Assembly (NCBI GenBank): GCA_963737905.1
Contig: CAVTUQ010000034.1
Location: 32,001 to 96,000, forward strand
Direction of reading: 5' to 3'
Length of the DNA: 64,000 bases
From: an uncultured delta proteobacterium
GTDB lineage: Bacteria; Desulfobacterota; Binatia; UBA9968
Below the pieces are notes generated by a model. That model was not told the origin of the DNA and made no database searches. It saw nothing but the letters and a program-made list of their open reading frames with translations. The first letter of the stretch is position 1, and each line of letters begins with the position of its first letter. A program made the translations under genes and the position numbers. Below are positions 13,600-37,035 of this stretch, piece by piece.

Positions 13600-13776
13600 C
13601 CGTGCTATACCGCGGGCTGATATCTGGATACACCGCCCCAGGTGCAGCGTTTGTCGGGAGAAGAGATTGACAAGGCGGCGCTTGTTGGCGGATATTGCAG
13701 CCGTTTTTGCTCTTCCTCGATTGCGGGTTCCTGGATATCCCGCAGGAAGAGCCCGCAGTTCACTTAATAGTTAGCC
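13600..13776 (+). promoter_or_regulatory. 177-bp leader, copy 1: Pc-like promoter, hairpin and putative attI-like site
   Basis: TTGACA (13667)-18 bp-GATATT; hairpin GCTCTTCC..TGCGGG..CCCGCA GGAAGAGC; ends CACTTAATA/GTTAGCC; about 93% identical to 36859-37035. Confidence 0.7.
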
Positions 13777-13822
13777 TCATACTCAGTGCGGGAAATACCT
13801 TAGCATGTCCTAAACGGTCATT

Positions 13823-14888
13823 TTGAAAGGGGCTAGCAAGAGCAGAGGAGGGACAAAGACGCAGACCTATTTCGAGTGGCTGAGCCAGGCATCGCCCGAC
13901 GTCCAGCTTCAGCTGTTGGTCTCGGGCCACTGGATCGCGCAGGCGATCGCGGTCGCCGCCGAGCTTGGTATCGCGGATCTTCTCGCGGATGGCCCTCGAT
14001 CGAGTGACGATCTGGCGCAAGCGGCGGGCTGTCACTCTGATGCGCTCTACCGACTTCTGCGAGCGCTGGCGGGCCTGGGAATTTTTACCGAGGTCGAACC
14101 GAAGAGGTTCGCGCTCACGCCGATGGCAGAAACGCTCGGCGCCGACGCGCCGGCTTCACTTCGTAACTGGGCGATGCATGCCTGCGGTGACGCGCAGTGG
14201 CGCACCTGGGGCCGGCTGGGTAATAGCGTCCGGACAGGGCAGCATCCTTCAAGCACGTCCATGGCATGGACAACACACAGTATCGTGCACAACATCCTGC
14301 TGCCGCTGCGCTTTTCGATGCCGGCATGACTAGCCTCGCTACTCAAGTGGCCAACGCAGTAGTGGAGGCGTATGACTTCTCCGCGCTAGGCACTATAGTT
14401 GATGTGGGTGGTGGCCACGGCGCGCTGCTCATCGCCATCCTGAGCGCCAATCCGGAGCTGCGCGCGGTGCTGTTTGACCTACCCCGCGTGGTTGAGGGTG
14501 CGCGGGAGCCACTGTTGGCGGCCGGAATACTTGACCGCTGCGAGATCGTTGGCGGAGATATGTTCGATACGGTGCCGCTGGCGGCGACGTCTATGTGCTC
14601 TCGCGAGTCATCCATGGTTGGTATGACGATCGCTCGGTGGTTATCCTCGCGAACTGCCGCCGCGTAATGGAACGACAGAGCAAACTCCTCCTGGTCCAAG
14701 AAGTCATCCCTCCAGGAGACTCGTTTGCCTACGGTAAGCTGAGCGATCTCAACATGCTGGTCTCGCCTGGTGGGCAGGAGCGCACTGAGGCCGAATATCG
14801 CGCGCTCTACGCTGCGGCAGGTTTCACACTGACACGCGTCATTCCGACGCGGTCGCGCATTAACGTCATTGAGGGTACGCCGGTCTAA
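13823..14888 (+). CDS. SAM-dependent O-methyltransferase with dimerisation domain (gene cassette; two frameshifts near 14240 and 14580; start uncertain)
   Basis: AAELGIADLL..GP, LYRLLRAL, IVDVGGGHG, VLFDLP, GGDMF, LSRVIHGW, GGQERT..EY across three frames. Confidence 0.8.
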
Positions 14889-14947
14889 CTTGACCGATGG
14901 CAGAAAAAAGAAACGGAAGGAAAAAATCGGGGCTCGTGAATTGTCTG

Positions 14948-15005
14948 GCCTAACCATCTGCTTCAGACCGACGCAGACTAAGCGCCGCTGAGCATGGCGT
15001 TAGCT
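14948..15005 (+). mobile_element. attC site (58 bp)
   Basis: R'' GCCTAAC ... R' GTTAGCT with imperfect internal palindrome CCAT..GCTTCAG / CTGAGCATGG. Confidence 0.8.
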
Positions 15006-15039
15006 TCGGCGAATGGTTGTTTGCTAAACTGGTAAAGTC

Positions 15040-15511
15040 ATGCCGTCTTCGTCTACGTTGAGACCTCGGTCATCAGCTATTACACAGCTCGGCGAGCTGA
15101 GATATAGTGACTGCGGCCCGGCAGACGCTCACGCAAGAATGGTGGGACGAGCCGAGGCAGGTTTGATCTTTACGTCTCTGTGCTCGTGGTGGAGGAGGCT
15201 AAGGGCGGTGGTGCTGAAGCAGCCAAAGGCGTCTGGCAGCGATTTCAGGGCTCCCAATTTTGGAGATAATGACGCTGCAGAGAAATTGGGCAGGCGCTTG
15301 TTGGATGAGGGAGCTATCCCGTCATCGAGAGCTGAAGACGCACTGCATATTTCACTCGCAACGTACACGGAATGGATTTTCTCTTGACGTGGAATTTCCG
15401 TCATATCAACAACGCCGAAATGAAAGCACGAATCAGGACTATCATTGAGGCGGCAGGGTACGAGAGCCTGTTATATGTTCACCCGAAGAGTTAGGAGGTG
15501 GCGAGCTATGA
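15040..15511 (+). pseudogene. PIN-domain (VapC-like) toxin, multiply frameshifted, in a cassette
   Basis: VYVETSVISYYTAR, EDALHISLA, MDFLLTWNFRHINNA, CSPEEL in shifting frames. Confidence 0.7.
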
Positions 15512-15677
15512 AACCAGATCCCATAGTGGAAGAAGTTCGCAAGGTCAGGGAAGCCACGCGGCGAAGTTAACTACGATCTCTCAGCTATTTGTGCTGACCT
15601 AAGAAGAAAGAAAAAGATTCGGTTACGTGGTGGTGTCTCGTCGACCGAAGCTGCGGCTGAAGCCTACCGGAAGCTAA
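15508..15677 (+). pseudogene. Small PIN-associated protein (putative antitoxin), frameshifted
   Basis: MKPDPIVEEVRKVRE start; ATGA overlap with the PIN gene; RBS GGAGG. Confidence 0.55.
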
Positions 15678-15730
15678 CCGTTGGGTTGAGAAGGACGCGG
15701 CGGACCGCGCCTCTCACCTTAGCGTTAGCG
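15672..15730 (+). mobile_element. attC site (59 bp)
   Basis: R'' AGCTAAC ... R' GTTAGCG; internal TGAGA..GCGG/CCGC..TCTCA; core shared with the attC at 42357. Confidence 0.85.
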
Positions 15731-15795
15731 CGAAGCAAAAGCGATGATAAAGAGCGAGTAAAGAATAAGTAAATGGGGTCAGAGAACTTTTTTTT

Positions 15796-15850
15796 GTCCA
15801 ACTCGCGTTGAGCATTGGGCACTCGGTGCTGGCATGCTCTTAGCTTAGGC
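15796..15850 (+). mobile_element. Degenerate attC
   Basis: GTCCAAC ... GAGCAT/ATGCTC stem ... AGCTTAGGC (G of the GTT core missing). Confidence 0.45.
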
Positions 15851-16149
15851 GGCTTTGAGGCGCGACGGGACGGTTTGATAACGAGCCGAACACGCACACC
15901 AGGCGGGCGAGCATGTCGATGAGTGCGTCGGTGCTGAACAGATCAATCCGGCTCGAAGCAGGTCACTTACCCGAGGCTGGGTCACGCGGAGAATCTTGCC
16001 ACTTCGGCCTGCTTGAGACGTCGGGCCGCGATTAGCTTCTGGACTTTAATCAGCAGGTCCGAACGAACGAGCAGGTGCTCGGCTTCGTCCGGAGGAAAAC
16101 TCAGATCTCGGAACACATTGCCGCTTGATCGAGTTATCTTATTTTTCAT
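15845..16149 (-). pseudogene. XRE/HigA-like HTH antitoxin, frameshifted, with a short upstream toxin remnant; 3' end approximate
   Basis: ITRSSGNVFRDL..PPDEAE.LLVRSDL...KQAEVA then RIDLFSTDALIDMLARLG; inverted orientation is common for TA cassettes. Confidence 0.7.
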
Positions 16150-16477
16150 CTTGAACCTACCTTCCAATGGTGTCCGGCACGGTTTCTTATGCAAGTATTA
16201 GTATATCTGTCAAGCCGGACGAAAAAAGAGGATGACTCCAATCATCGGCACAGTCGCCTAATAGCTGCAGAGTCGAACGCCAAGTTCGGACGGTGCGTGT
16301 CTGCCGATGCAGATGACGACGAGATCGAGTATGGAAAGACCGTTGGCTGGTCGTTGCTCCGCCGTCGTACTGTTCATTGCGGTGTTGATCGCTGAACGCT
16401 GATAGTCCGGTCGCGGCAAAACGTTCACGGGCAACGTCGTTGTAACCATAAGCGTTAACATCACAGAGGAGGCAAGA

Positions 16478-16853
16478 ATGACTGAGCAAACAAAGAGTCT
16501 TTATACTCGGCTCGGTGGCTACGATGCGATTACTGCCGTTGTGGAGGATCTTCACCCCGGCTCGTGAACGATGCGCAGCTGGGGCGATTCTGGCAAAACC
16601 GGGGTGCGGATGGAATGCGCCGTGAGAAACAGCTCTTGATCGATTTACTTTGTGCCAGCGCCGGGGGACCGTCATATTACACCGGGAGGGATATGGGGTT
16701 ATCTCACAAGGGGATGAAAATCAGTGGGAGTGATGGGCGGCCTTCATACGTCATGTGAATGCTACTCTGGACGCGTTCCAAGTTCTTCAGCAGGAACGGG
16801 GCGAGGTGCTGGGTTTTATAGAAAGCACCAAGGCGGACATTGTCGAGGTCTAG
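16478..16853 (+). pseudogene. Group 1 truncated hemoglobin, frameshifted
   Basis: KSLYTRLGGYDAITAVV, LIDLLCASAGGP.YYTGRDM..SHKGMKIS; preceded by GTTAACA (16454) and RBS GAGGAGG. Confidence 0.75.
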
Positions 16854-16885
16854 AGGTGGGGGCAGCCGAAATAAGGAGGAATAAA

Positions 16886-17990
16886 ATGTTGCCCAAACAT
16901 CCAGATCCGACCGTTGATCATGTTTTAAAAACCTGGGCGCCGCGGATGATTGTTCAGGGAATCGATTACAACGACTTCATGACGACCGGCGCGCGCATTC
17001 GTGTGTGGGACGAGTGGTGCCGCGAGTGGTGCGTGACTGCGGCCGGCCACGAAACGTTTGCGCGGGAGAACGAAGCGAAGGGCAACCGGGAAAGCGCAAC
17101 TGAGGCTTATCTTCTGGCTTCTATGGCCTATCACTTCGCGTGCAACAACTCTCCTCAAAATCTTGACGAGTATATTCCAGCGGCGAAAAAGCGCGTCGAG
17201 TGCTACGCGAAGGCCGCGCCTTATCTCGATCCGCCGGCCGAGCGCCATGAAGTGCCGTTCGAAAACTTCCGCATGCCGGCTTATCTGCGAGTGCCGCCGG
17301 GAATTCAAACGACCGCCGGTGGTGGTGATCATCTCCGGACTCGAATCGACCAAGGAGGAAGCTCGTACAATGGAGGATGGCTTTCTGCGACGCGGGATGG
17401 CGACCTTTACTTTTGATGGTCCCGGCCAAGGCGAGACGTGGTTTCAAGGCGGCATGATCGTCGATTTCGAGCGCGCGACATCGGCGGTGATCGACTACCT
17501 TGAAAAAATTGCTCAAGTCGACACAAAAAGGCTTGGCGTTTTTGGGCCGAGCCTGGGAGGTTATCTCGCGCCACGATCGGCGGCCTGCGATTCGCGCATC
17601 AAAGCCTGCACTTTCGCTGGCGGTATGTACGACCGGACGCAGGTGGCGAACCGCTTGGAAGATCCATTCGAATACGCCCGCATCGCTCACATCTGGAAGG
17701 TATATGACAAACAGAAGCTGATCGAGCTGCACAGCCGCTGTACTCTGGCAGGATTGGCTTCGAAAATCCGCTGCCCGCTATTAGTGGTCCACGGCACCAA
17801 AGACTTTGTACCGGTCGAACAGGCGAAACGGACCTATGAGGAAGCCGCGGGCCCCAAGGAATGGGTCTTACTTGAGGGCGGCAATCACGTCTGCAATAAC
17901 ATGCCCTTCCGCTACCGCCCGCTGATCGGAGATTTTCTCGCCAAGCATTTAGAGGCGGAAAGAGTCCGACAATTTAAGGTAGATTCTTAG
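16886..17990 (+). CDS. Alpha/beta hydrolase (2,6-dihydroxypseudooxynicotine hydrolase-like; frameshift near 17305)
   Basis: GLESTKEE, FDGPGQGE, GPSLGG, LVVHGTKD, GGNHVCNN. Confidence 0.8.
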
Positions 17991-18001
17991 ACTTCGAGTC
18001 T

Positions 18002-18212
18002 GAGTATTTATCTCTAACACTTTATGCTGCTAACCATGCTGATAAAAGACGTTATCGCACCAAGACGCCAAGCACGCAAAGAGATCTAGAAATCCCCCTT
18101 TCATCCCCGCTTTGTCAAAGGGGGAAAGAGGGGATTTGATGAACCTTGGCGCCCTTTGCGCCTTTGCGCGAGACATTGTTGTTCGATCTCTTTTCAATTC
18201 AGAGTTTCAAAT
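18002..18212 (+). repeat. Composite palindromic element (inverted homolog of 30045-30246) with a nested hairpin at 18090-18137
   Basis: TCGCACCAAGACGCCAAGCACGCAAAG ... CTTGGCGCCCTTTGCGCCTTTGCGCGA around AAATCCCC...GGGGATTT. Confidence 0.65.
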
Positions 18213-18223
18213 ACCGGGCAGCA

Positions 18224-19236: not shown

Positions 19237-19390
19237 GGGTCTTCGGGCTTTCTGTGGAACAGGCTCGGAGATTGCACCGCAGAGACGCGGAGGACGCGGA
19301 GTAAAACTTTCTTGATTAAAAAATTCGCCGAACTCTGCGAGCTCGGCGCCTCTGTGGTGAATACCTTTTCGTAGGAAACCCGGAGTAGCC
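19237..19390. mobile_element. 154-bp MITE-like element (empty form)
   Basis: Imperfect terminal inverted repeats GGGTCTTCGGGCTTTCTGTGGAA / TTTTCGTAGGAAACCCGGAGTAGCC; internal CACCGCAGAG..CTCTGTGGTG palindrome; second copy at 22615-22933. Confidence 0.7.
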
Positions 19391-22614: not shown

Positions 22615-22933
22615 GGGTCTTCAGGCTTTGACGTGAAACAGGCTCGGAGATTGCACCGCGGAGGCGCGGAGGACGCGGAGTAATGAGTTCTTGGTTAAAA
22701 AATTTTCCGATCTCTGCGAGCTCCGTACTACTATGCTGCGAAATTTTCGCGGCTTGCGCAAATTTTCTATCAGAGGGATTAACCACAAAGAACGCATAGA
22801 ACACAAAAAAGATAATTGTTCTTTCCTGCGACCTTTGTGTTCTTTGCGGTTAAATCTCTCCTTTACTTTGGTTGCGGCTTCGCCGCGCTGGGCCTCTGTG
22901 GTGATACTTTTTCACAGGAAACCCGGAATAACC
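22615..22933. mobile_element. Filled copy of the 19237-19390 element with a ~165-bp insertion at about 22726-22890
   Basis: Flanks align with 19237-19390; insert starts TACTACTATGCTGCG, ends TTTGGTTGCGGCTTCGCCGCGCTG, and contains its own AACCACAAAG..CTTTGCGGTT palindrome. Confidence 0.75.
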
Positions 22934-24277: not shown

Positions 24278-25216
24278 GTGAACATTTTTGAGAAATATCC
24301 CGGTAGCACCTTCCTGAAAAATCTTCCCGACGATTCGGAATTCTTTCCTCTCCGTGAAAGAATCGTTGACCTTTTTCGATTCCTCGACGGCCTCGAAGAT
24401 CGTCATTTCGAGCAACAACTCGACCGAGATCCGCACGCGCGATTGTGGGAAATGATGTTGGCGATGGTATTGAAATCTGAAGGCTATGAACTAAAGAGTA
24501 CCGATCACGGACCAGATTTTGTCATCGAAAAAAAGGGCAACCGGGTTTTCATAGAGGCCGTTTGTCCGGGGCCAGGAGACGAGAGCAATCCTAACTCGGT
24601 TCCGCCAATAGTCCACGGAGCGCCAATAGCTCAGGAAGTCCCTGTACCACAGATCGTCTTGCGTATTCGCAGCGCACTTGAGGACAAGAAGCGGAAATAT
24701 AAAAACTATATCGAACAAGGAATCGTATCTTCGGACGACTGTTGTGTTATCGCGCTCAGCTCATCGAAACTCAGCCCCAGGGCCAAATCGTGGCCACCGA
24801 CAATCATGAGGGCAACCCACGGTTTGGGAAATCCATATGTGATATTTGGCAAGGGTGAAGGAGTTGTCGGTGAAGGCATTGAATCATGTGAGAGCATTTC
24901 GAAGGTCAGCGGGGAGGACATCGACACGAGGTTTTTTCTATCTGAGGAGAATGGTTTAATCTCAGCGGTGTTGTATTCAGACTGCTCATTTTTTTCTTTG
25001 GTCTTCGACGTGTTTGAAGAATCGATGTTTATCCACAATCCAAAAGCACGTGTGCCCGTCCCTCAGGGGCTTGTCAAAGGAATAAAAGAGATTTGGACAA
25101 TACGTTGCCACGACAGTTCAGAGTGGCGGGCATACAGAATAAGGGATGCCCAACAAACGGCTGAGGCAACGGCGAAAACACCGTGCCTCAGCCTTAGCGT
25201 TAGACAATTGCGATGA
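24278..25216 (+). CDS. Hypothetical cassette protein, possible PD-(D/E)XK nuclease-like fold
   Basis: Visibly more AT-rich than its neighbours; WE...GPDF.....FIEA pattern; ORF reads through the attC. Confidence 0.6.
   Translation: MNIFEKYPGSTFLKNLPDDSEFFPLRERIVDLFRFLDGLEDRHFEQQLDRDPHARLWEMMLAMVLKSEGYELKSTDHGPDFVIEKKGNRVFIEAVCPGPGDESNPNSVPPIVHGAPIAQEVPVPQIVLRIRSALEDKKRKYKNYIEQGIVSSDDCCVIALSSSKLSPRAKSWPPTIMRATHGLGNPYVIFGKGEGVVGEGIESCESISKVSGEDIDTRFFLSEENGLISAVLYSDCSFFSLVFDVFEESMFIHNPKARVPVPQGLVKGIKEIWTIRCHDSSEWRAYRIRDAQQTAEATAKTPCLSLSVRQLR
25148..25205 (+). mobile_element. attC site (58 bp)
   Basis: R'' GCCCAAC, GGCTGAGGCA.CGG / CCGTGCCTCAGCC stem, R' GTTAGAC. Confidence 0.85.
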
Positions 25217-25359
25217 AATCATCGACTACTGCCACGCTTGGCGGCCTCGTGGGACGCCTGTTTTTGCGGCCGGTCGGGTCGAGTCGACCGGCGGCCATCA
25301 TAGCTTGGTGGGAGAGGCGGCGAATTGCTTACAACCTCATTGTCGGCCTGGTGGGCGCC

Positions 25360-25464
25360 GTCACCCATACGTATCATGGAGAAGCGGAACAGAGTGCACG
25401 AGTACGGCTGATATCAGCGCGAAAAGCAACAAAGAATGAAAAGAAGCAATACCAGAGGAAATAA
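25360..25464 (+). pseudogene. BrnT-like toxin C-terminal fragment fused to an unrelated cassette remnant
   Basis: VTHTY...RVRLISARKATKNEKKQY motif. Confidence 0.65.
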
Positions 25465-25467
25465 AAT

Positions 25468-25668
25468 ATGAGACGAGAATATGATTTTTCGAAAGCCGTT
25501 CGAGGAAAATTTTATCGGAAAGGCGCCGAACTGCGGTTACCCATTTATCTCGACCCTAAACTGCAGAGCAAACTGGAGCGCATTGCTCGCAGGAAAGGCA
25601 AGGATGTCACCGAGATGGTCAATCAGTTGCTGCGGAAAGACATCGAGTTTCTTGAAGAACTGACCTGA
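25468..25668 (+). CDS. BrnA/CopG-like antitoxin
   Basis: MRREYDFSKAVRGKFY...IYLD...VNQLL; directly after the BrnT fragment. Confidence 0.7.
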   Translation: MRREYDFSKAVRGKFYRKGAELRLPIYLDPKLQSKLERIARRKGKDVTEMVNQLLRKDIEFLEELT

Positions 25669-25680
25669 ACCAACTTGCAG

Positions 25681-25761
25681 CCCTAACCAGCGGCTTGAGA
25701 AAGACATGCGGCCCCCCTCGCAAAGCTCGCGGACCGTCGCTTCTCAGCCTTCGCGTTAACC
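25681..25761 (+). mobile_element. attC site (81 bp)
   Basis: CCCTAAC, GGCTTGAGAA / TTCTCAGCC stem with a bulged base, GTTAACC. Confidence 0.75.
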
Positions 25762-27895: not shown

Positions 27896-28909
27896 TTACA
27901 GATCGAGGGTACTTTCCGCGAAAAGTTCTTCCACCTTCATCTTCTTGGAGGTGAGGCCTTGTTCGTGAGAGAAATCGATCAGCGTCTCGAGCATTTTACG
28001 GTTGGCTTTGACGCCGTAAGGGTATGGGTCGGTGCCGAACATCTCCTGGGTCCGGGCCAGATATTCGCGGCCGAAGAACAGCGCTGACGGAATGCTGTCA
28101 ACGAGCTTTGCGTTGAAGTGCTCCTTCGCCTTGACGAAGCCCGTGTACAGATTAAAGGCCACCCAGGGATATTTCTTGTAGACATCGCCGCGAATCGTGT
28201 AGGCGTGATTGACCGGAAGAAAACCCCACTTCTTGAAGAAACGCGCGCCCTCCGCCATGCGGTCGGGAAAAAGTAGTTTGACTTTACTCCAGTCGCCTTC
28301 CGCTCCCGGAATGCGATGTGACCGGCCGATGATGTCGGGAATGTTTTTCCAAGGGCTGTTTATGGCGGCGGCGTCCAGCTCGTTGTTCACTAGCATCGAC
28401 GCCATGCTTTTGTCCGTCGGAATGCGCTGAAACGAGATCCCCGGCGGCGGCGTGAAGCCGGTGGCGCCGCCGTGGCTCAACTCTTCGGTCCTCTCCATGT
28501 ACCAATGGACTTTGTATTGCGACACGCCAAAGTCGTGTTCGAGTAATCCTCGCTGCCACAATGCAGCGGTTTGTTGGTATTCCCCCACGCCGATGCGTTT
28601 GCCGACGAGGTCGCCCGGCTGTTTAATGCCGGAGTCCGTGTTATAGGAAACCTCGGTATGGAACAAGCGCCGGCTGGGAAAAACCGGGAGCGCGATCATG
28701 TCGAAGCCGCGCTCGCGAGCGATTAAATACGAGGACATCGACATTTCGCCGACCTCGAACTCCTGAAACTTGAGCTGCCGCCAGAAGGTTTCTGATGGAT
28801 GTGAGTAAGTCGGGACAATTTCGATGCCTTCAGCCTGCACAACTCCTTTCATTAACGGGTCGACTCTTTCGTTAAACGCGGAAATGAAGCTCAATCTGAG
28901 TTTGGGCAT
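27896..28909 (-). CDS. 4,5-dihydroxyphthalate decarboxylase-like protein, paralog
   Basis: FWRQLKFQEFEVGEMSMSS, ALPVFPSR, GVGEYQQTAALW.RG.L, PVNH, DPYPYGVKANR; no signal peptide. Confidence 0.8.
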   Translation of the reverse strand: MPKLRLSFISAFNERVDPLMKGVVQAEGIEIVPTYSHPSETFWRQLKFQEFEVGEMSMSSYLIARERGFDMIALPVFPSRRLFHTEVSYNTDSGIKQPGDLVGKRIGVGEYQQTAALWQRGLLEHDFGVSQYKVHWYMERTEELSHGGATGFTPPPGISFQRIPTDKSMASMLVNNELDAAAINSPWKNIPDIIGRSHRIPGAEGDWSKVKLLFPDRMAEGARFFKKWGFLPVNHAYTIRGDVYKKYPWVAFNLYTGFVKAKEHFNAKLVDSIPSALFFGREYLARTQEMFGTDPYPYGVKANRKMLETLIDFSHEQGLTSKKMKVEELFAESTLDL

Positions 28910-28966
28910 CGTGTCTCCTTTTGATGTGATTCCACGCAGCTTGCTGCGGGATTCATTAGACCGCCA

Positions 28967-29980
28967 TCATAAATCCAGGGTCTCTTTGGCGAACAACTCT
29001 TCCACTTTCATCTTGCGCGGCGTGAGCCCTTGTTCCTGGGAAAAGCCGATAAGCGTTTCGAGCATCGCCGAGTTGGCTTTCACGCCGTAAGGGAACGGAT
29101 CATCGCCCAAAATGCCCTGTGTCGTCGCGAGATATTCAGCGCCGAAAAAGAGCGCAGCCGGTATCCGCTCCGGCAGAGTTTTTGTCGCGTACGCTTTTGC
29201 AGCAACGAAAGCGTCGTACAATTTGAGCGTGACTCCCGGATGCTCCCGATAGACGTCACCGCGAATGATGTAAGCGTGGTTGACCGGAACAAAACCGTAC
29301 TTCCCGACGAAGCGTTTGGCTTCTGCGATCGGATCGGGGAATAAAGGTTTGACTTTGCTCCAGTCGCCTTCGCTGCCGCGTATGTGAGTCGAGCGATCGA
29401 TGACGTTCACCGCCCGTGAAAGGTGTCCGGCAATGGGCGCGGCGTCGATTTCGTGATTCACCAGCATGGTTGCCATGCTCTTGTCCGGCGGTATGCGATG
29501 CAATGATATTCCCGGGGGCGGTGTGAATCCCGTGGCGCCGCCGTGGCTCAACTCGTCGGTTCGTTCCATGTACCAGTCGACTTTGTACTGCGACACGCCG
29601 AAGTCGTGGTCCAATATACCGCGCGCCCAGAGGGCTGCGGTCTGCTGGTACTCGCCGACGCCGATGCGCTTATCCAAGAGGTCGCCGGGCTTCGTGACGC
29701 CGGAGTCGACATGATAGGAAAGGTCGGTATGGAAAAAACGGCGGCTTGGAAAAACGGGAAGCGCAATCATGTCCACGCCGCGCGAGCGCGCGATCAAGTA
29801 GGAGGACATGGACATTTCCGCCACTTGAAATTCTTGGAACTTGAGCTGGCGCCAAAAAGTCTCCGAAGGGTGAGAATAGGTCGGGATGATATCGATACCG
29901 TCGGCTTTGATGGTCCCGTCCATGAGCGGTTCAACGCGCTCGTTGAAATTGGAGACGAAGCTCAAAGTTAAGTCTGGCAT
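28967..29980 (-). CDS. 4,5-dihydroxyphthalate decarboxylase-like protein, paralog
   Basis: Same motifs; colinear with 27896-28909. Confidence 0.8.
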   Translation of the reverse strand: MPDLTLSFVSNFNERVEPLMDGTIKADGIDIIPTYSHPSETFWRQLKFQEFQVAEMSMSSYLIARSRGVDMIALPVFPSRRFFHTDLSYHVDSGVTKPGDLLDKRIGVGEYQQTAALWARGILDHDFGVSQYKVDWYMERTDELSHGGATGFTPPPGISLHRIPPDKSMATMLVNHEIDAAPIAGHLSRAVNVIDRSTHIRGSEGDWSKVKPLFPDPIAEAKRFVGKYGFVPVNHAYIIRGDVYREHPGVTLKLYDAFVAAKAYATKTLPERIPAALFFGAEYLATTQGILGDDPFPYGVKANSAMLETLIGFSQEQGLTPRKMKVEELFAKETLDL

Positions 29981-30044
29981 CCTTTGATCTCTTTCTAACC
30001 CACGCTTTGGCGCGCCGGCATTTTCTTGGCTGAAACGAGGAAAG

Positions 30045-30246
30045 ATTTGACCTTTGAGTTGTTTTTACTGAATCGAAAAGAAGAATACTCGCGCAAAGCA
30101 TGTCCTGAGCGGTGTCGAAGGGACGCAAAGCACGCCAAGTTCGGATAAACAAGAAAAAGGTCTTTTTCTTTTGCGCCTTGGCGTCTTGGCGCGATCAATT
30201 TTCTTGCCGTGGGTTTGTTGAACATAAAAAAAGGTAGAATTTACTC
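30045..30246 (-). repeat. Composite palindromic element with a 23-bp mini-insert at 30099-30121
   Basis: TCGCGCAAAG[CATGTCCTGAGCGGTGTCGAAGG]GACGCAAAGCACGCCAAG ... TTGCGCCTTGGCGTCTTGGCGCGA; reverse complement aligns loosely with 18002-18212. Confidence 0.6.
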
Positions 30247-31256
30247 TACAAATCGAGCGTGCTTTCAGCGAATAATTCTTCGACGGTCATTCTTCTCGGT
30301 GTCAGCCCTTGCTCGTGAGAAAATGCAATGATCGTGTCGAGCATCGCCTTGTTGGCCTTGATGCCGTAAGGAAAGGGGTCGTCGCCGAGCATTTCGCGTG
30401 TCATCGCAGCATACTCCGGCGCGAAGAAAAGCGCCGTCGGAATACGCTCGATCAGTTTCTCACGAACGAGCGCCTTGGCCTTGACGAAGCCGGTGTAGAG
30501 ATTAAACGCGACCCAGGGATATTTTTTGTAGATGTCCCCGCGAATAATGTACGCATGGTTGACCGGTAAAAATCCGTGTTGTTTATAGAAACGCGCACCT
30601 TCTGCCATGCGATCCGGAAACAGCGGTTTGATTTTGCTCCAATCTCCTTTGCCGGCGATACGACTGGAGCGATCCAGCGCATTGGCTTGGAGCACCCAGG
30701 GGCTCGCCACATGGGCGACGTCCAATTCGTTTTCGAGTAGGGTCGATGCCAGGCTCTTGTTTGCCGCGATACGGTTAAATGATATGCCGGGAGGCGGCTT
30801 GAAACCTGTAGCGGCGCCGTGGCTCATCTCCTCGCTTCGTTCCATATACCAGTGAATCTTGTACTGGGAGACGCCAAAGTCATGTTCCAAAATGCCCCGT
30901 ATCCAAAGCGCCGCCGTTTGTTGATACTCCGCCACGCCCAGGCGTTTGTCGGCAAGGTCTTGGGGTTTCCTGATCCCCGAGTCGACGTGATAGGAAAGCT
31001 CGGTTTGAAATAAACGCCGGCTTGGAAAAACCGGCAGCGCGATCATATCGGCGCCCTGGGAGCGGGCGATTAGAAAGGAAGACATCGACATCTCCGCCAC
31101 TTCGAATTCGCCAAACTTAAGCTGCCGCCAGAACGTCTCTGCGGGATGGGAGTATGTCGGAATCAGTTCGATGCCCTCGGCCTGGACTGCTCCGTTCATC
31201 AGAGGCTCGACCCGCTCGTTGAACGCGGAAATGAATCCTAACGTAAGCTTCGACAT
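30246..31256 (-). CDS. 4,5-dihydroxyphthalate decarboxylase-like protein, paralog
   Basis: Same motifs; colinear with the two downstream copies. Confidence 0.8.
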   Translation of the reverse strand: MSKLTLGFISAFNERVEPLMNGAVQAEGIELIPTYSHPAETFWRQLKFGEFEVAEMSMSSFLIARSQGADMIALPVFPSRRLFQTELSYHVDSGIRKPQDLADKRLGVAEYQQTAALWIRGILEHDFGVSQYKIHWYMERSEEMSHGAATGFKPPPGISFNRIAANKSLASTLLENELDVAHVASPWVLQANALDRSSRIAGKGDWSKIKPLFPDRMAEGARFYKQHGFLPVNHAYIIRGDIYKKYPWVAFNLYTGFVKAKALVREKLIERIPTALFFAPEYAAMTREMLGDDPFPYGIKANKAMLDTIIAFSHEQGLTPRRMTVEELFAESTLDL

Positions 31257-33434: not shown

Positions 33435-33699
33435 CGCAATCCTTTCCCCCGAATCTATTTGGTCGCGCCTAATTCTTTTCGGGCATTGTTTAGGAAGCTA
33501 CAAAAAAAACCCATCGCGCGCACCCACCCGGTGATAGCGGGCCTCGATTTGATGACCGCCTCCCGTGTGAGCGCGCCGACGCAACAGAATGCTTTTCTCC
33601 GCTATTTGAATCGTGGCCGGGAATTGCGCTGGAGCCAACGCCTTCTGCTCATCAGCTTCCACGTGCTCCAGCGGAGTTTAGAGGTCTTGCGGTTGTTAT

Positions 33700-34563
33700 T
33701 TAAGAACCGACTGCGGCTCGAAGCGGCGCGGGCTGCTCGGAAAATCCTTGCTTCAGCCACCACTCCGCGATCTCGATGCCGGTTGCGAACCAAACGCCCT
33801 GATGTCCCTTCATGTATTCGATCATTTCTCGCAACGCGCTGGTCCGTCCAGCTCTGCTGGATACATAGGGATGTAACTGAAACGTGGTGAAAGTGGGCGC
33901 TATCGAAGATTCCCGATAAAGCTCGTCGAAGAAACGCTTCCACAGTGCCAACGCGTTATCCGGATGATCGCCGGCTCGGTTCTGGTGGCCATAGAGCCTG
34001 CCGTCGCCAAAAGGTTGGCGCGGAAGCTCGACTAACCTCGATTGCCCGTTCTCCCAGACGAAAGGAAAATCGTCGGCGAACGAATTGCTGTTCCAGATAA
34101 AGCCTTCCTCCATGAGAATCTCTACCGTATTGACGCTTTGAGTACAGGTGCGCCAACCCAGCGGACGTTTCCCGGTCCGCTTGATCAGCATGTCCGTTGT
34201 GCGCCGGGTCACCTCTTTTTCTTCCTGTCTGGACAAATCGCGGGCGATCTCGTGATGGTAACCATGGCCGGCAATTTCATGCCCCTGTTCGGCGATCGCT
34301 TTCATTGCATCTGGATATCTTTCAGCGATGCCGCCGCAGGTCAAAAAAGTCGTCTTGACTTTGACTTCGTCCAACATTCTGAGAATCCGCCAGATGCCGG
34401 TTTTCGGTCCGTACTCGGCCTCGGCATAATCCTCGTTGTTCATTTTGCCGCTGGCAAGAGGCCTGACGGGCTCTCCACCTTGAAAATCGAAAGTTATCGC
34501 CACCGTCATCCGACGATTTTCCGGCCAGAATATTTTTCCCTTTGCGTGATTCTCTGTGATCAT
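33700..34563 (-). CDS. Polysaccharide deacetylase family protein (PuuE-like)
   Basis: VAITFDF, EYGPKTGIWRIL, GHEIAGHGY.H, LHPYVS. Confidence 0.85.
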   Translation of the reverse strand: MITENHAKGKIFWPENRRMTVAITFDFQGGEPVRPLASGKMNNEDYAEAEYGPKTGIWRILRMLDEVKVKTTFLTCGGIAERYPDAMKAIAEQGHEIAGHGYHHEIARDLSRQEEKEVTRRTTDMLIKRTGKRPLGWRTCTQSVNTVEILMEEGFIWNSNSFADDFPFVWENGQSRLVELPRQPFGDGRLYGHQNRAGDHPDNALALWKRFFDELYRESSIAPTFTTFQLHPYVSSRAGRTSALREMIEYMKGHQGVWFATGIEIAEWWLKQGFSEQPAPLRAAVGS

Positions 34564-34713
34564 CCTTTGATCTCCTTTTAAATTCCTCGACGAAGTTTCC
34601 TACCACTATTTTGGAACATATTACTCTCATTCAAGACATGTCAACAACCGAGTTCTTACTAAACATCGCCATAGAGACTCGAATTTCGAGGCGAGCCAAT
34701 TTTGCCTCCACAA

Positions 34714-35430
34714 CTACGGACGGTCTTTAAGCCGACTCAGGTAATATTCCCAGCCGCGCATGGGAAAACGCTGGTCGGCGTTGTAGACTTCCAACTCTTC
34801 GGCAGTCAGATACTTCGGTTGGCCATGAAGCAACGCCAGGTGATTCCATTCACCGAGCATGGCGAGCCGGGTCGTGCGCTCGATAACCTGCTCGATGCTC
34901 GCGCCGACCACCGAATCGCCGTGAGCGCGCATTAAAACCACCGGCCCGTCGCCCAAAGACGCGGCCAGCTCGTTGCCGCGCTCCACTGTGCGGACGAGTC
35001 CGATGCCCTGATACACCGGAGGCCCATCGGCGGAGAGAAACTTGCCATAGTGGTGCATAGGCTTTAGCTTGATCGGCAGCACGCTGAAAATCGTGCTCCA
35101 CTTCGAGTGTGTATGCGCCACGCTGTCCACGTCGGGACGCGCCTTTAGAATGCACGCATGAATCGGCCATTCGTTAGGCGGTGTCTTCGCGCCGCCCAGA
35201 TAGTTGCCGTCGAAATCTTGCATAATCAGCCGGTCCATGGTCACGCAGCCCGGGCTGACATTGGCGATGGTGATAAATGCATCCACTCCAGGCACACGCA
35301 CGCTGATATGGCCATAACCGTCGGTCACTCCTTCGTGATCGAGAATGTGACAGGCGGTGATCAATTTTTGCGTCAACTCTTTTAGTTCCGATGAATCTAA
35401 AGCGGGTACATTCGCTCGATTTGCTACCAT
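34714..35430 (-). CDS. Class II aldolase/adducin family protein
   Basis: GYGHISVR, EWPIHACI..ARPDV..VAHTH, LMRAHG. Confidence 0.85.
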   Translation of the reverse strand: MVANRANVPALDSSELKELTQKLITACHILDHEGVTDGYGHISVRVPGVDAFITIANVSPGCVTMDRLIMQDFDGNYLGGAKTPPNEWPIHACILKARPDVDSVAHTHSKWSTIFSVLPIKLKPMHHYGKFLSADGPPVYQGIGLVRTVERGNELAASLGDGPVVLMRAHGDSVVGASIEQVIERTTRLAMLGEWNHLALLHGQPKYLTAEELEVYNADQRFPMRGWEYYLSRLKDRP

Positions 35431-35566
35431 GAACACTCCTTCGGTATGGACGAATCTAGTTATGCGGCAATCTATTTGCGCACTCTGAGGCTGTCAAGCG
35501 TACGCGCGAGCTGTGTGCAGCCGACTTTACTTTTATTGACATCGAAAAACGAAGCCCCTATCCTTA

Positions 35567-35776
35567 ATGCGCATGATCTACATTCGCATCGCAGAAAAGC
35601 ACGATGCCAAGGGTTTTCTCCTGCTGGCAAAGAGCGGCGCTTCCATCACTTGCCTGCCTGATAATATTTACGGAGCAGCTCCTGAACACATCCGGATACT
35701 GAAGCGAAATCGGATTCCTTTCAAAAAATTGCCTCCCAAAAGCGTGCACCTTCCTAAGTCTTCTCTCGCTGCATGA
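35567..35776 (+). CDS. Small hypothetical protein
   Basis: 69-aa ORF filling the gap between the two aldolase paralogs, on the opposite strand. Confidence 0.5.
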   Translation: MRMIYIRIAEKHDAKGFLLLAKSGASITCLPDNIYGAAPEHIRILKRNRIPFKKLPPKSVHLPKSSLAA

Positions 35777-35852
35777 AAAAGTATGAGATCTTCGCACGAT
35801 TTAGTTAATGAGTCTAGTGAGTCTAATTCCGGCTAATCTGCTGCGCTGCGAA

Positions 35853-36572
35853 TCAAGAGCGGCGCTCCCGCGCTCTGCTTAAATAATATTCCCACGGGCG
35901 AGCTGGGAAAGCCTGGTCGGCGGAGAAAGTCGCCAGTTCCTCTTCGGTCATGTAAAGCGGCTCGCCATGGGCCACGGCCATATGCGCAAGCTCGCCAAGA
36001 AAAGCAAGTTGAATAGTGCGCAGGATCGCTTGCTCGAGGCTAGCACCGACCACCGCGTCACCGTGCGCCCGCATCAAGACCGCCGCGCTGGCTTCCAAAG
36101 CGGCTGCCAGCGCTTCTCCACGTTCGACAGTGCCGATGAGTCCCGATCCCGGGTAGATGGGCGGACCTGCGGCGGGAAGAAATTTCGCGTACATGTGGAC
36201 GGGGCGAAGGCCGCCTTTCAAGACGCTGAAAAGCGAGCTCCATTTCGAGTGGGTGTGGCAAACGCTCATCACGTCCGGACGAGCGCGCATGATACACGCG
36301 TGAATCGGCCACTCGTAAGGCGGCGATTTTTCTCCGCCGAGATAACGGCCGTCGAAGTCGAGCATGACGAGCCGATCCAAAGTCGCACAGCCGGGGCTTA
36401 CGCCGGCCAGGGTAAGAAAAGCTTCGGTTCCTGGAATGCGCACGCTCACGTGACCGAAGCCATCGGTGATGCCTTCGTGATCGAGAATGTGAGAGCCATC
36501 GACCAGTTTCTCCTTGAGTGCTTTGAGTTCGCTGGAATCGAAAGCGGGTACATTTGAGTTGAAGCTGTCCAT
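35853..36572 (-). CDS. Class II aldolase/adducin family protein, paralog
   Basis: GFGHVSVR, EWPIHACI, VCHTH, LMRAHG. Confidence 0.85.
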   Translation of the reverse strand: MDSFNSNVPAFDSSELKALKEKLVDGSHILDHEGITDGFGHVSVRIPGTEAFLTLAGVSPGCATLDRLVMLDFDGRYLGGEKSPPYEWPIHACIMRARPDVMSVCHTHSKWSSLFSVLKGGLRPVHMYAKFLPAAGPPIYPGSGLIGTVERGEALAAALEASAAVLMRAHGDAVVGASLEQAILRTIQLAFLGELAHMAVAHGEPLYMTEEELATFSADQAFPARPWEYYLSRARERRS

Positions 36573-36858
36573 GCAAGCTCCTTATGGTTGGTTGATCGTT
36601 TACTTGGTTCTATTGGCCGACCATCGAGGTGTCAAGGCAACGATTGTTTTGTGTAACGATTGTTTTGAAAAGCGGCACGCCCTCCCCCAACTCCTTGCTG
36701 CAGTCTGCGCTCTGCGCCTTCTGGTCGAACTGGAAGGATCTGTTGAATACTGAAATTATTTGCGATCAACATGCTTGTTGCATGTGAGGACGGTTCGTCT
36801 TTCTTTGAGAAAGGCCGTGTCAAAAAAGAGTTTATCGGCAAGGATTTGGTAACCGCTG

Positions 36859-37035
36859 CCGTGCTACACCGCGGGCTGATATCTGGATACACCGCCCCAC
36901 AGGCAGCGTTTGTCGGGACAAGAGATTGACAAGGCGACGCTTGTTGGCGGATATTGCAGCTGTTTTTGCTCTTCCTCGATTGCGGGTTCCTGGATACGCC
37001 GCCGGAAGAGCCGGCAGTTCACTTAATAGTTAGGC
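36859..37035 (+). promoter_or_regulatory. 177-bp leader, copy 2: Pc-like promoter, hairpin and putative attI-like site
   Basis: About 12 substitutions versus 13600-13776; TTGACA at 36926; ends CACTTAATA/GTTAGGC. Confidence 0.7.

What the first reader, a model, noticed from the sequence alone, without database searches (positions are those of the whole stretch)
13600..37035. Dispersed, integrase-less attI/promoter platform: the same 177-bp leader heads two unrelated cassette arrays
Seen: 13600-13776 and 36859-37035 differ at only about 12 positions by manual count. Both carry TTGACA-N18-GATATT and a GCTCTTCC...GGAAGAGC hairpin, and both end in CACTTAATA-GTTAG, where similarity stops. Upstream flanks are unrelated housekeeping-type genes, and each leader is followed by a different gene ending in an attC. 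Established: integron cassettes insert at G/TT of a GTTRRRY core in attI and are expressed from Pc, normally next to intI. Inference: this is a non-coding Pc+attI module copied to several chromosomal sites that captures cassettes using an integrase in trans, i.e. a distributed integron rather than one array. How the module itself moves is unexplained, since no TIR or TSD is evident.
Basis: partly seen in the sequence, partly recalled or inferred. Interest (0 to 1): 0.88.

Follow-up and report, generated by a model that had tools for sequence, protein, structure and literature searches.

The report
Integrase-less integron heads driving cassettes
The repeated 177-bp sequence is the promoter-plus-insertion-site "head" of this bacterial family's integrons, here detached from its integrase gene yet still heading mobile gene cassettes, which shows how gene-capture platforms can persist and apparently keep working without a neighbouring integrase.

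Summary
The repeat is real: 94% identity over 175 nt. It is not an IS end, an intron or a known RNA.

In relatives the same unit lies directly 3' of an integron integrase gene, on the same strand. Its homology always stops at AATAGTT, followed by an RRRY-like tetramer. Different genes follow, usually closed by an attC. It is therefore the attI + Pc head of this family's "inverted" integrons.

The window's contig has no intI.
- Copy A is followed by two canonical cassettes.
- Copy B is followed by a hydrolase cassette that elsewhere in the genome sits between attCs. Its own attC is degenerate.

Orphan heads are the rule:
- 0 of 17 further copies have an IntI upstream.
- Only 10 of 20 head-bearing relatives encode an IntI.
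- The heads are under purifying selection.

At one orthologous orphan head, four genomes carry four different first cassettes. One differs by a precise 716-bp cassette insertion at G/TT.

Capture with IntI in trans is inferred, not shown. How heads multiply is unresolved. I rate this a new variant of a known kind.

The parts
13568..13772 (+). Head A: orphan attI-Pc unit. 13568-13599 is a remnant of the intI-unit spacer. 13600-13772 is the conserved unit, ending in GTT.
   Evidence: 94% identical to copy B. The upstream 35 nt are shared with copies L020 and L017. Homologous to 21-40 copies in relatives.
13603..13660 (+). 5' conserved module of head A (TACACCGCGGGCTGATATCTGGATACACCGCC, an imperfect GC hairpin, then GTTTGTCGG). 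Function unknown.
   Evidence: This is the most widely conserved piece. In relatives it lies 12-16 nt or more after the intI stop codon. The scan tool calls no terminator here.
13667..13696 (+). Putative Pc promoter of head A: -35 TTGACA at 13667-13672, an 18-nt spacer, -10 GATATT at 13691-13696.
   Evidence: 10 of 12 matches and the only site in the region. Both hexamers are near-invariant in the 21-copy alignment. One RNA-library contig ends at 13705, which is only a weak hint.
13709..13752 (+). Leader inverted repeat GCTCTTCC...GGAAGAGC with an inner GCGG(G)...(C)CCGC stem.
   Evidence: Read from the sequence. 80% of cells pair, against 39-54% when partners are slid, but covariation is not above shuffles.
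13770..13776 (+). attI core of head A, GTTAGCC. The inferred crossover lies between G13770 and T13771.
   Evidence: Homology among all copies ends at AATAGTT. An RNA-library contig carries the same unit end joined to a different sequence after 13774.
13771..15005 (+). Cassette A1: O-methyltransferase gene (about 13823-14888) plus attC at 14948-15005.
   Evidence: Pfam Dimerisation and Methyltransf_2. attC scores 61 and 59.9 bits. The same gene is first after a head in another genus, G091c, at 74% over 1141 nt. The frameshifts are assembly errors: other contigs carry an extra C at 14242 and 14574.
15000..15730 (+). Cassette A2: ORFs of unknown family plus attC at 15672-15730.
   Evidence: attC scores 60.3 and 68.5 bits. 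The 115-aa ORF has no Pfam hit.
25148..25758 (+). Two further attC sites (25148-25205 and 25684-25758), same strand, 9.4 kb beyond cassette A2.
   Evidence: 49.7 and 38.3 bits for the first, 27.3 bits for the second. Whether they belong to array A is open.
36780..37031 (+). Head B: orphan attI-Pc unit with its full spacer. Promoter at 36926-36955.
   Evidence: 90% over 252 nt to the C25 copy, whose spacer starts at the stop codon of an intI remnant. Promoter scan.
37029..37035 (+). attI core of head B, GTTAGGC. The inferred crossover lies between G37029 and T37030.
   Evidence: The hydrolase cassette's homology to its copies behind attC sites on C19 and C26 begins right after GTT.
37030..38035 (+). 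Cassette B1: Tat-signal alpha/beta hydrolase (37059-37919) plus a degenerate attC at about 37976-38035.
   Evidence: Pfam Abhydrolase_1. An 84%-identical copy lies between two attCs at C19:195262-196331. A 92%-identical copy follows an attC in the decayed integron on C26. The attC here is not detected by model R2.
42357..42411 (+). Degenerate attC, closely related to the attC at 15672-15730 but lacking part of the L box.
   Evidence: 24.9 bits with R1, E 0.002-0.004. The 45.8 bits with R2 is inflated because the site was in R2's training set. D9 repeat; sequence.

Best explanation
**What it is.** The unit is the head of the chromosomal integrons of this bacterial family. The closest IntI loci in the named collection are titled Candidatus Binatia or 'delta proteobacterium' MAGs.

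**Architecture.** These integrons have the 'inverted' layout: intI, head and cassettes all read the same way. The head runs 5' to 3' as follows:
1. A conserved module of unknown role just after the intI stop codon.
2. A sigma-70-type promoter (TTGACA-N18-GATATT) that reads into the cassettes, i.e. Pc.
3. A roughly 75-nt leader with an inverted repeat.
4. The attI core, where cassettes are inserted between G and TT of GTTRRRY.

**State in the window.** Both heads have lost their integrase gene.
- Head A still drives two attC-bounded cassettes: a methyltransferase and an unknown gene.
- Head B drives a hydrolase cassette that is itself multi-copy and mobile in this genome.

**How it works.**
- Shown: position, sharp GTT boundary, attC-bounded genes downstream, absence of intI, sequence constraint on orphan copies, and different cassettes at an orthologous orphan head.
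- Inferred: the promoter is active; IntI recognises the core; and cassette gain or loss at orphan heads is catalysed by an IntI supplied in trans, from another locus or from a transient mobile element.

**How heads became orphans.** Most likely by deletion of intI. In this co-directional layout, that deletion leaves Pc and attI intact. Heads that multiply within a genome probably do so by duplication, gene conversion or repeated acquisition. This last step is the least certain.
For: **1. Adjacency to intI in relatives**
- A full-length IntI (aa 6-353, 72% identical to this genome's IntI) is followed after 15 nt by the unit on the same strand in L026.
- A near-full IntI precedes the unit in L030.
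- IntI C-terminal fragments precede the unit or its 5' module in L003, L020, L031, L034, L035, L036 and L045.

**2. Inverted layout**
- In the 7-contig relative G032, five attC hits with E <= 1e-3 and two weaker ones (E 0.057 and 0.23) lie downstream of the intact intI on its strand.
- Across 80 IntI loci from many phyla, 11 of 12 attC hits lie downstream on the intI strand.

**3. Sharp right end**
- In the 21- and 23-copy alignments, homology ends at AATAGTT.
- The next four bases fit or nearly fit RRRY. After that the sequences are unrelated.

**4. Cassettes follow**
- A start codon lies 3-30 nt after the core in most copies.
- attC sites were seen by eye and by model after the first ORF in L017, L021, L026, L040, L042, L052, L054, L055 and L056.
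- In 17 further loci, all 10 attC hits are downstream and on the unit's strand.

**5. The window itself**
- No TIGR02249 match on contig C34. The genome has one intact IntI, at C7:226384-227478, scoring 456 bits against a cut-off of 265.
- Two canonical attCs follow head A.
- B's hydrolase cassette recurs after attCs on C19 and C26, with homology starting right after GTT.

**6. Constraint on orphan copies**
- Differences among the three close copies of this genome fall in 3 of 94 family-conserved columns, against 17 of 78 variable columns (Fisher p = 1.8e-4).
- At the orthologous aldo-keto-reductase locus, the unit is 92-95% identical across three genera while the flanking genes are 74-80%.

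**7. Cassette turnover at an orphan head**
- G003a, G105, G005 and G025b share the upstream flank (msrB, a CBS-domain gene, an aldo-keto reductase) and the head. Their first cassettes are all different.
- G025b equals G005 plus one 716-bp cassette (a 212-aa ORF and its attC), placed exactly between the attI GTT and the shared TPMT cassette.
- A further 2.5 kb downstream is shared again at 80.7%.
- None of G005, G025 or G105 has an IntI over the cut-off.

**8. Population hints**
- One RNA-library contig runs from 13705, about 9 nt after the -10, through the core into a different cassette.
- In a DNA run and an RNA run, the attC at 14958-15003 is joined to other sequences.
Against: - No experiment shows that IntI binds or recombines this site, or that the promoter fires.
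- The RNA evidence is one low-depth contig. Contigs cannot define transcript ends. Another contig from the same run (13652-13737) also covers DNA upstream of the -35.
- The only intact IntI in this genome is followed by a differently sequenced head. BLAST finds no match to the unit. A similar layout (GTTTGTCGG, TTTACA...GGTTA) is my own reading.
- attI sites are reported to be recognised only by their cognate integrase (PMC2095811; start of the abstract seen in the listing).
- Of 20 head-bearing relatives tested, 10 lack any IntI over the cut-off. Three of these are 97-99% complete. Present-day capture cannot operate in those genomes from resident genes.
- B's first cassette has no functional-looking attC.
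- Among 80 IntI loci of the named species collection, none carries the unit downstream. The link to intact intI therefore rests on few loci (L026 and L030, plus a diverged form after G028's intI).
- The hairpins show no covariation beyond shuffles.
- My attC models are home-made and insensitive. Several attCs score only E 0.07-3.5.
Confidence: 0.72

Rival explanations
1. Pure fossils. The heads are leftovers of decayed integrons and now serve only as fixed promoters for domesticated cassettes. No cassette has been inserted or excised at them since intI was lost. Differences between orthologous heads come from homologous replacement of the whole array, or predate the loss.
For: - 10 of 20 head-bearing relatives have no IntI over the cut-off.
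- intI 3' remnants with frameshifts or stops lie beside some heads.
- B's attC and the attC at 42357 are degenerate.
- The arrays are short, and only 23 attC hits at E <= 0.1 occur in 6.7 Mb.
- Xanthomonas shows the same erosion, with stable arrays after intI inactivation (10.1101/2025.06.18.660453, passages read).
Against: - The flank-head junction is shared by G003a and G105, which are different genera. Orphaning is therefore older than the cassette differences. The G025b/G005 difference is a single cassette placed exactly at G/TT.
- The attI core and leader, not only the promoter, are conserved in orphans.
- Replacement by homologous recombination would still need a donor in which the same orphan locus had gained the cassette.
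Confidence: 0.2
2. The unit is itself a mobile promoter module. It spreads on its own or as a passenger, for example carried along by the IS91-family element with a tyrosine recombinase that targets the attI core. It only secondarily sits beside intI.
For: - Copies cluster by genome: G000 A/B/C25 are 91-93% identical to each other, G091a/b 96%, G028a/b 89%. They nevertheless lie in different flanks.
- Many orphans start within a few nt of the same point, about q78-86.
- At the aldo-keto-reductase locus the unit starts about 12 nt after a housekeeping stop codon.
- The IS91-family element abuts heads in G000 C25, G009, G032 (twice) and G091 (twice).
- IS91/ISCR elements are known to carry adjacent DNA along (recalled, not checked here).
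Against: - The left ends are in fact heterogeneous: q1, q44, q64-69, q76-86 and q104-160. The q76-86 cluster coincides with the edge of sequence conservation.
I did not search for them.
- The window's two copies have no IS nearby.
- The IS's own left end excludes the unit. It is also found at two non-head sites.
- No match in 72,556 plasmid or 50,697 phage records.
Confidence: 0.12
3. The conserved part downstream of the promoter is a cis-regulatory RNA leader (riboswitch-like or attenuator), or the unit encodes a small RNA. The GTT boundary would then be incidental.
For: - A promoter followed by a conserved 75-nt leader with an inverted repeat lies upstream of diverse genes.
- 80% of cells pair, against 39-54% in slid controls.
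Against: - No Rfam family at gathering score in 64 kb. At E <= 5 there are only two unrelated weak hits, both outside the unit.
- RNAalifold finds no consensus structure.
- Covariation is not above shuffles: 114 of 500 shuffles reach the observed score.
- The downstream genes are functionally unrelated. They are bounded by attC sites, which a regulon leader would not explain.
Confidence: 0.04

Closest known systems
attI site plus Pc promoter of integrons (class 1 attI1/Pc, Vibrio chromosomal integrons)
   Same: - Lies between intI and the first cassette.
- The homology boundary is at G/TT of a GTTRRRY core.
- A promoter reads into otherwise promoter-less cassettes that end in attC sites.
   Different: - No sequence likeness to the class 1-3 sites. 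[quoted passage not shown]
- intI and the cassettes are co-directional.
- About 177 bp are conserved across at least 12 genera, including a 5' module of unknown role.
- Most copies have no intI beside them.
[quoted passage not shown] 2016, PMC4889954)
   Same: - attC-bounded cassettes with no nearby intI.
- That paper finds 95% of CALINs not near an intI pseudogene. It speculates about mobilisation by integrases elsewhere and states that CALIN expression is unknown (passages read).
   Different: - Each array here begins with a conserved attI-Pc head. This indicates origin by loss of intI rather than by splitting of an array, and it supplies a promoter.
- Array A meets the criterion of at least 2 attC sites. 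Array B does not with my model.
Xanthomonas chromosomal integrons and CALINs at conserved loci (bioRxiv 10.1101/2025.06.18.660453; Gillings 2005 as cited there)
   Same: - An ancestral platform with repeated lineage-specific inactivation of intI.
- CALINs at conserved chromosomal positions without intI.
- The statement that CALINs 'can be mobilized in trans' (passages read).
   Different: - In Xanthomonas the platform stays at one locus (ilvD) with recognisable intI pseudogenes, and arrays become static after inactivation.
- No attI-Pc head is described for the dispersed CALINs in the passages I read.
- Here several heads occur per genome, intI is fully gone, and first cassettes differ at an orthologous orphan head.
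Inverted integron-integrase group (Treponema and others)
   Same: intI is transcribed towards attI and the cassettes (PMC4889954 passage; the Treponema details are recalled).
   Different: A different lineage. I know of no report that heads are orphaned there, and I did not search for one specifically.
Cassette insertion outside att sites (attG; bioRxiv 10.1101/2022.09.11.507474)
   Same: Cassettes are found away from a complete integron. IntI acts on genomic sites in trans (only the start of the abstract was seen, in the listing).
   Different: Insertion here is not at arbitrary genomic sites. It is behind a conserved 177-bp head that is homologous to the intI-adjacent region.
IS91/ISCR elements beside integrons; IS1111-attC and group IIC-attC elements that target integron sites
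   Same: A mobile element sits at an integron recombination site. Here it is an IS91-family element (Y2_Tnp + Zn_Tnp_IS91 with a Phage_integrase ORF), inserted exactly at the attI crossover in 4 of 6 mapped insertions.
   Different: The target is the attI core, not attC. The comparison with ISCR, IS1111-attC and IIC-attC is from recall, not from a call.

Membership tests
Integron attI site | Lies next to intI, between intI and the first cassette | tested here: met
   - Met for the unit as a family: L026 (full IntI, then the unit after 15 nt), L030, and seven loci with IntI C-terminal fragments.
- Not met for the two window copies. No TIGR02249 match on contig C34.
Integron attI site | Recombination point at G/TT of a GTTRRRY core, so homology between copies ends there | tested here: met
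   - The 21- and 23-copy alignments end at AATAGTT followed by an RRRY-like tetramer.
- The hydrolase and TPMT cassettes start right after GTT, whether behind attI or behind attC.
Integron attI site | Followed by cassettes whose attC sites have the same orientation | tested here: met
   - Head A: attCs at 14948 and 15672, both on +.
- Relatives: 10 of 10 attC hits are downstream and on the same strand.
- Head B: only a degenerate attC.
Integron attI site | Bound and recombined with attC by an integron integrase | not testable with these tools
   Only comparative traces are available: the one-cassette difference at an orthologous head.
Pc cassette promoter | A promoter in or near attI that transcribes the cassettes | tested here: inconclusive
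   - The consensus-like site is conserved.
- One RNA-library contig ends at 13705 and crosses into a cassette, but contigs cannot define transcript starts.
Complete integron (IntegronFinder sense: intI plus at least one attC nearby) | intI within a few kb of the attC cluster | tested here: not met
   No intI on the 172-kb contig. The genome's intact intI is on contig C7.
CALIN | At least two attC sites within 4 kb, no intI nearby | tested here: met
   - Array A: two attCs 724 bp apart.
- 25148 and 25684 form a second pair.
- Array B has none detected within 4 kb of the head, so the criterion is not met for B.
Integron integrase (for the resident C7 gene) | TIGR02249 over the curated cut-off; extra segment inside the catalytic domain | tested here: met
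   - 456 bits against a cut-off of 265.
- The Phage_integrase profile (positions 2-169) spans 201 residues, which implies an insertion of about 33 aa.
Known RNA family, including group II intron termini | Match to an Rfam covariance model | tested here: not met
   - 0 matches at gathering score in the window.
- At E <= 5 there are two weak hits in four copy loci, neither inside the unit.
IS or MITE end | Terminal inverted repeats or target duplication, or identity to the end of an IS present in the genome | tested here: inconclusive
   - The IS91-family element that abuts the C25 copy has its boundary just outside the unit. It also occurs at two sites without the unit.
- I ran no search for TIRs or TSDs, and no ISfinder library is at hand.

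The most novel reading that the evidence does not exclude
This family runs a truly distributed integron. Several integrase-less attI-Pc heads per genome sit at fixed chromosomal loci and act as parallel expression-and-integration ports. They are conserved more strongly than the neighbouring housekeeping genes. A single IntI elsewhere in the genome, or a transient horizontally supplied one, services them. The heads multiply within genomes, possibly helped by the IS91-family element whose IntI-like tyrosine recombinase inserts exactly at the attI crossover.
Probability: 0.3. Interest if true: 0.8.

Novelty: new variant of a known kind. Interest (0 to 1): 0.62.

Why it matters
**It defines an attI-Pc region outside the clinical classes.**
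- attI sites are unknown for most integrons. Genome surveys therefore cannot tell where an array starts or whether an integrase-less array is expressed (PMC4889954, passages).
- Here one is defined by comparison for a whole uncultured soil lineage.

**It bears on the origin and expression of CALINs.**
- Most copies of this head lack intI and are still under constraint.
- That gives a concrete answer, for this family, to where CALINs come from: loss of intI from co-directional integrons. It also indicates that their first cassettes have a promoter.

**It offers a natural case for IntI acting in trans.**
- The orthologous head with four different first cassettes, in genomes without intI, makes it testable that IntI supplied in trans keeps remodelling such arrays.

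**Practical use.**
- The 177-bp unit is a search handle for finding array heads in metagenomes.

**Limits.**
- No resistance gene or pathogen is involved.

Tried and rejected
- **Hand-written attC scanners.** They were either too strict, finding only three window sites, or gave noise at shuffle level. Several genome-wide 'hits' lay inside coding genes. I replaced them with covariance models R1 and R2. These remain insensitive to attCs with long variable loops.
- **RNA structure.** RNAalifold found no consensus for the unit. My three helices are not supported by covariation beyond shuffles.
- **Known RNA families.** Rfam gave nothing relevant.
- **Terminator.** The scan found no terminator in either copy. 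I therefore dropped the idea that the 5' hairpin is the intI terminator.
- **Synteny of flanks in same-genus genomes.**
  - The peptidase gene upstream of A has no DNA-level match there.
  - The contigs syntenic with B's flank end before the head.
  - Empty-site comparison for A and B was therefore not possible.
- **Named species collection.** 0 of 80 IntI loci carry the unit downstream of intI. One locus (L096) has a 41-nt piece of the 5' module about 215 bp upstream of an intI.
- **Plasmid and phage collections.** No match.
- **Read laying.** All four runs are contigs. Stretches without cover, including most of 13615-13799 in the DNA run, say nothing. No transcript start can be claimed.
- **Literature search.** The phrases 'orphan attI', 'solo attI', 'attI sites lacking' and 'attI without' showed 0 occurrences in the 15 rows listed of 195. 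Of the 15 listed rows, 14 matched 'multiple atti...' as 'attitude' and one matched 'integrase-less'; the other 180 were not shown. One search (Binat* + integron) listed 8 of its 15 hits, all irrelevant.
- **MAFFT alignment of G005 against G025b.** It misplaced the unit. The coordinates I use come from BLAST and the printed junctions.

Full report
**1. Observation**

The two stretches align as described.
- They are 94% identical over 175 nt.
- Each has one sigma-70-like site, TTGACA-N18-GATATT, at 13667-13696 and 36926-36955.
- Each has the GCTCTTCC/GGAAGAGC inverted repeat.
- Similarity ends abruptly after CACTTAATAGTTAG.

The flanks are unrelated.
- Upstream of A is an M24 peptidase-like gene. 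Upstream of B is a divergent class II aldolase.
- Downstream are an O-methyltransferase and a Tat-signal alpha/beta hydrolase.

The genome is 6.7 Mb in 46 contigs, 87% complete. It holds two more copies that keep the promoter and the GTT end:
- C25:342303-342549, 90% over 252 nt.
- C7:414089-414211, 78%.
- There is also a 47-nt piece on C13.

Copy B and the C25 copy share about 100 further nt upstream. Copy A shares about 35 further nt with copies in two other genomes. The unit is therefore not a fixed 177 bp.

**2. What it is not**
- No Rfam family matches at gathering score in the window.
- At E <= 5 only two unrelated weak hits occur in four copy loci, both outside the unit.
- There is no match in plasmid or phage collections.
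- RNAalifold finds no consensus fold.
- The three helices I drew pair in 80% of cells, against 39-54% when slid. They show no covariation beyond shuffles.

Conservation is therefore of sequence, as expected for a double-stranded protein-binding site.

**3. Link to integron integrases**

Immediately upstream of the C25 copy lies a broken 3' remnant of an integron integrase gene, matching TIGR02249 positions 262-310 with one stop.

The genome has exactly one intact integron integrase.
- It lies at C7:226384-227478 and scores 456 bits against a cut-off of 265.
- Its Phage_integrase domain is stretched by about 33 residues.
- There is none on the window's contig.

In relatives, a 256-nt query found the unit in 23 of 61 genomes, counting G000. 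By family, without G000, the figures were 20 of 36 in the same family, 2 of 5 in a second family, and 0 of 19 in a third.

tblastn with the C7 IntI then showed the following:
- The unit sits directly 3' of intI on the same strand in L026 (full IntI, 15 nt gap) and L030.
- It, or its 5' module, sits 3' of IntI C-terminal fragments in L003, L020, L031, L034, L035, L036 and L045.

**4. Layout**

I built attC covariance models: R1 from 5 seeds and R2 from 21 matches.
- In the near-complete relative G032, the intact intI is followed on its own strand by five attC hits with E <= 1e-3, plus two weaker ones (E 0.057 and 0.23).
- The resident C7 intI is followed by two attCs.
- Across 80 IntI loci from many phyla, 11 of 12 attC hits are downstream on the intI strand.

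These are therefore 'inverted' integrons: intI, then the head, then the cassettes. This arrangement is known in other lineages (PMC4889954, passage).

**5. The right end behaves as attI**
- In alignments of 23 and 21 copies, homology ends at AATAGTT. The next four bases are AGGC, GAAC, AGCC, GGGC, AGGT and the like. After that the sequences are unrelated.
- A start codon follows within 3-30 nt in most copies.
- After the first ORF an attC-like site was found in L017, L021, L026, L040, L042, L052, L054, L055 and L056. I found these by eye and, weakly, by model with filters off.
- In 17 further copies from better assemblies, all 10 attC hits lie downstream on the unit's strand.

**6. The window's arrays**

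Head A:
- It is followed by cassette A1 (methyltransferase; attC at 14948-15005) and cassette A2 (attC at 15672-15730).
- Two more attCs lie at 25148 and 25684, and a degenerate one at 42357.
- A1 is also the first gene after a head in another genus.

Head B:
- No attC is detected after the hydrolase.
- However, the hydrolase is a bona fide cassette. An 84%-identical copy lies between two attCs on C19. A 92%-identical copy follows an attC in a decayed integron on C26.
- In all three places homology starts right after GTT.
- The genes further on, a 3-hydroxyisobutyrate-dehydrogenase-like gene and a flavin monooxygenase, are syntenic at 88-94% in relatives. They look like core genes.

The frameshifts in the window's genes are assembly errors. 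Independent DNA and RNA contigs carry an extra C at 14242 and 14574.

**7. Orphan heads are the rule**
- The 121-nt promoter-plus-core part occurs in 26 of 90 family genomes and 12 of 23 genera, with up to four copies per genome.
- Of 17 additional copies, none has an IntI within about 3 kb upstream. The only hits are 28-44% identical tyrosine-recombinase segments in three loci.
- Of 20 head-bearing relatives tested, 10 encode an IntI over the cut-off.
- Those without one include genomes reported as 97-99% complete.

**8. Constraint**
- Differences among copies A, B and C25 avoid family-conserved columns: 3 of 94 against 17 of 78 (p = 1.8e-4).
- At one locus the head is 92-95% identical across three genera, while the neighbouring genes are 74-80%.

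**9. Turnover at an orphan head**
- G003a, G105, G005 and G025b share the upstream genes (msrB, a CBS-domain gene, an aldo-keto reductase) and the head.
- In G003a and G105 the head begins about 12 nt after the reductase stop codon.
- Their first cassettes are four different genes.
- G025b differs from G005 by one 716-bp cassette (a 212-aa ORF plus attC), lying exactly between the attI GTT and the shared TPMT cassette (Pfam TPMT). The next 2.5 kb are shared again.
- In G105 TPMT-like starts lie 2.7 kb and 3.7 kb further down, each just behind an attC.

This is the product expected from attI x attC integration or excision. It happened after the head had lost intI. None of G005, G025 or G105 has an IntI over the cut-off. 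I infer an integrase acting in trans at some time. Allelic replacement from a relative with the same orphan locus only moves the event elsewhere.

**10. Caveats on 'in trans' for this genome**
- The resident IntI is followed by a head that BLAST does not match to the unit. It has a similar layout, and homology with its G032 counterpart ends at GGTTA.
- attI recognition is reported to be cognate-specific (PMC2095811; start of the abstract seen in the listing).
- The integrase type linked to the unit survives in G000 only as fragments.

**11. How heads spread**
- Copies cluster by genome in G000, G091 and G028.
- Yet A's spacer is of a different type from B's. This suggests gene conversion of the conserved part or a mosaic origin (inference).
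- Left ends are heterogeneous, and some keep intI remnants. This fits deletion of intI.
- An IS91-family element with its own tyrosine recombinase is inserted exactly at the attI crossover in G000 C25, G009 and twice in G032. It abuts heads in G091. It may rearrange or carry heads, but the window's copies have none nearby.

**12. Expression and population hints**
- One metatranscriptome contig ends at 13705, about 9 nt after the -10. It runs through the core into a different cassette.
- Another contig covers 13652-13737, including DNA upstream of the -35.
- RNA-library contigs also cover the methyltransferase gene.
- The attC at 14958-15003 is joined to other sequences in a DNA run and an RNA run.
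- All of these are contigs at low depth, so they are hints only.

**13. Comparison with what is known**
- The nearest categories are attI/Pc platforms, CALINs (PMC4889954; passages), and the eroded Xanthomonas integrons with CALINs at conserved loci (preprint passages).
- What differs here is a defined, family-wide attI-Pc head that mostly lacks intI. It occurs several times per genome, is under constraint, and shows cassette changes after orphaning.
- In four searches I saw no paper describing such heads.
- Counts include the unpublished genomes G012 and G006, and the count includes G012. No specific claim rests on them.

**14. Verdict**
- I rate it a new variant of a known kind, with interest 0.62.

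Noticed in passing
L003:1673-3172 (= G000 C25:342549 onward); also G000 C1:58689, C22:22259; L030, L061, L062, L075, L077: An IS91-family element (Y2_Tnp + Zn_Tnp_IS91 transposase, preceded by a 282-aa Phage_integrase ORF that matches the N-terminal half of the integron-integrase model). Its left end sits exactly at the attI crossover (..AATAGT|TGAAC..) in four loci of three genera, and at two non-integron sites in this genome. It looks like an attI-targeting IS.
   Followed up: partly
G000 C26:156800-159450 (minus strand): A fifth, decayed integron. It holds an intI remnant with stops, a diverged head ending CTCAATAGTT, and a RelA/SpoT-like cassette with attC. A truncated copy of the same hydrolase cassette that follows head B comes next.
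   Followed up: partly
window 13344, 14242, 14574, 14932, 15049: Single-base indels relative to independent DNA and RNA contigs (an extra C in the contigs, and one base left out at 13344). The window's many split ORFs (peptidase and methyltransferase here) look like homopolymer errors of the assembly, not pseudogenes.
   Followed up: partly
window 11923-12184, 19254-19390, 22633-22933: Palindromic REP-like repeats built on AACCACAAAGAACGCAAAGG-type units. Dozens of copies occur in same-genus genomes. One pair brackets a tctBAC-like transporter block. They can mimic attC ends (GTTTAAC ... GTTACAT) but are a separate repeat family.
   Followed up: partly
window 45910-45982; also G000 C6:1183-1255, C29:80750-80823, C34:140788-140864: Short arrays of (C/T)TTGAACG / CGTTCAAG units in inverted arrangement. 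They recur on several contigs and produced false attC candidates.
   Followed up: no
window 27897-31008 and 35081-36522: Tandem paralogues on the minus strand. Three genes of about 356-368 aa are spaced 1071 and about 1276-1279 bp apart (D1/D2 repeats, 65-78% identity). Two class II aldolase genes are 71% identical (D4).
   Followed up: no
G000 C19:195262-196925: A small integrase-less array of three attCs. It holds the hydrolase cassette and lies next to a 318-aa tyrosine recombinase gene on the opposite strand. No unit was found there.
   Followed up: no
L096:2246-2286 (a named MAG contig) = piece q76-116 of the unit: A 41-nt piece of the head's 5' module lies about 215 bp upstream of a full-length intI, instead of downstream. 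This is unexplained. It may be the tail of an older, deleted integron.
   Followed up: no
window 13624-13637 and 13731-13744 (36883-36896 and 36990-37003 in copy B): A direct repeat of CTGGATAC-CCGCC, about 107 bp apart. One copy is in the 5' module and one in the leader, and both are conserved across genera. They are candidates for accessory binding sites of the integrase or a regulator.
   Followed up: no
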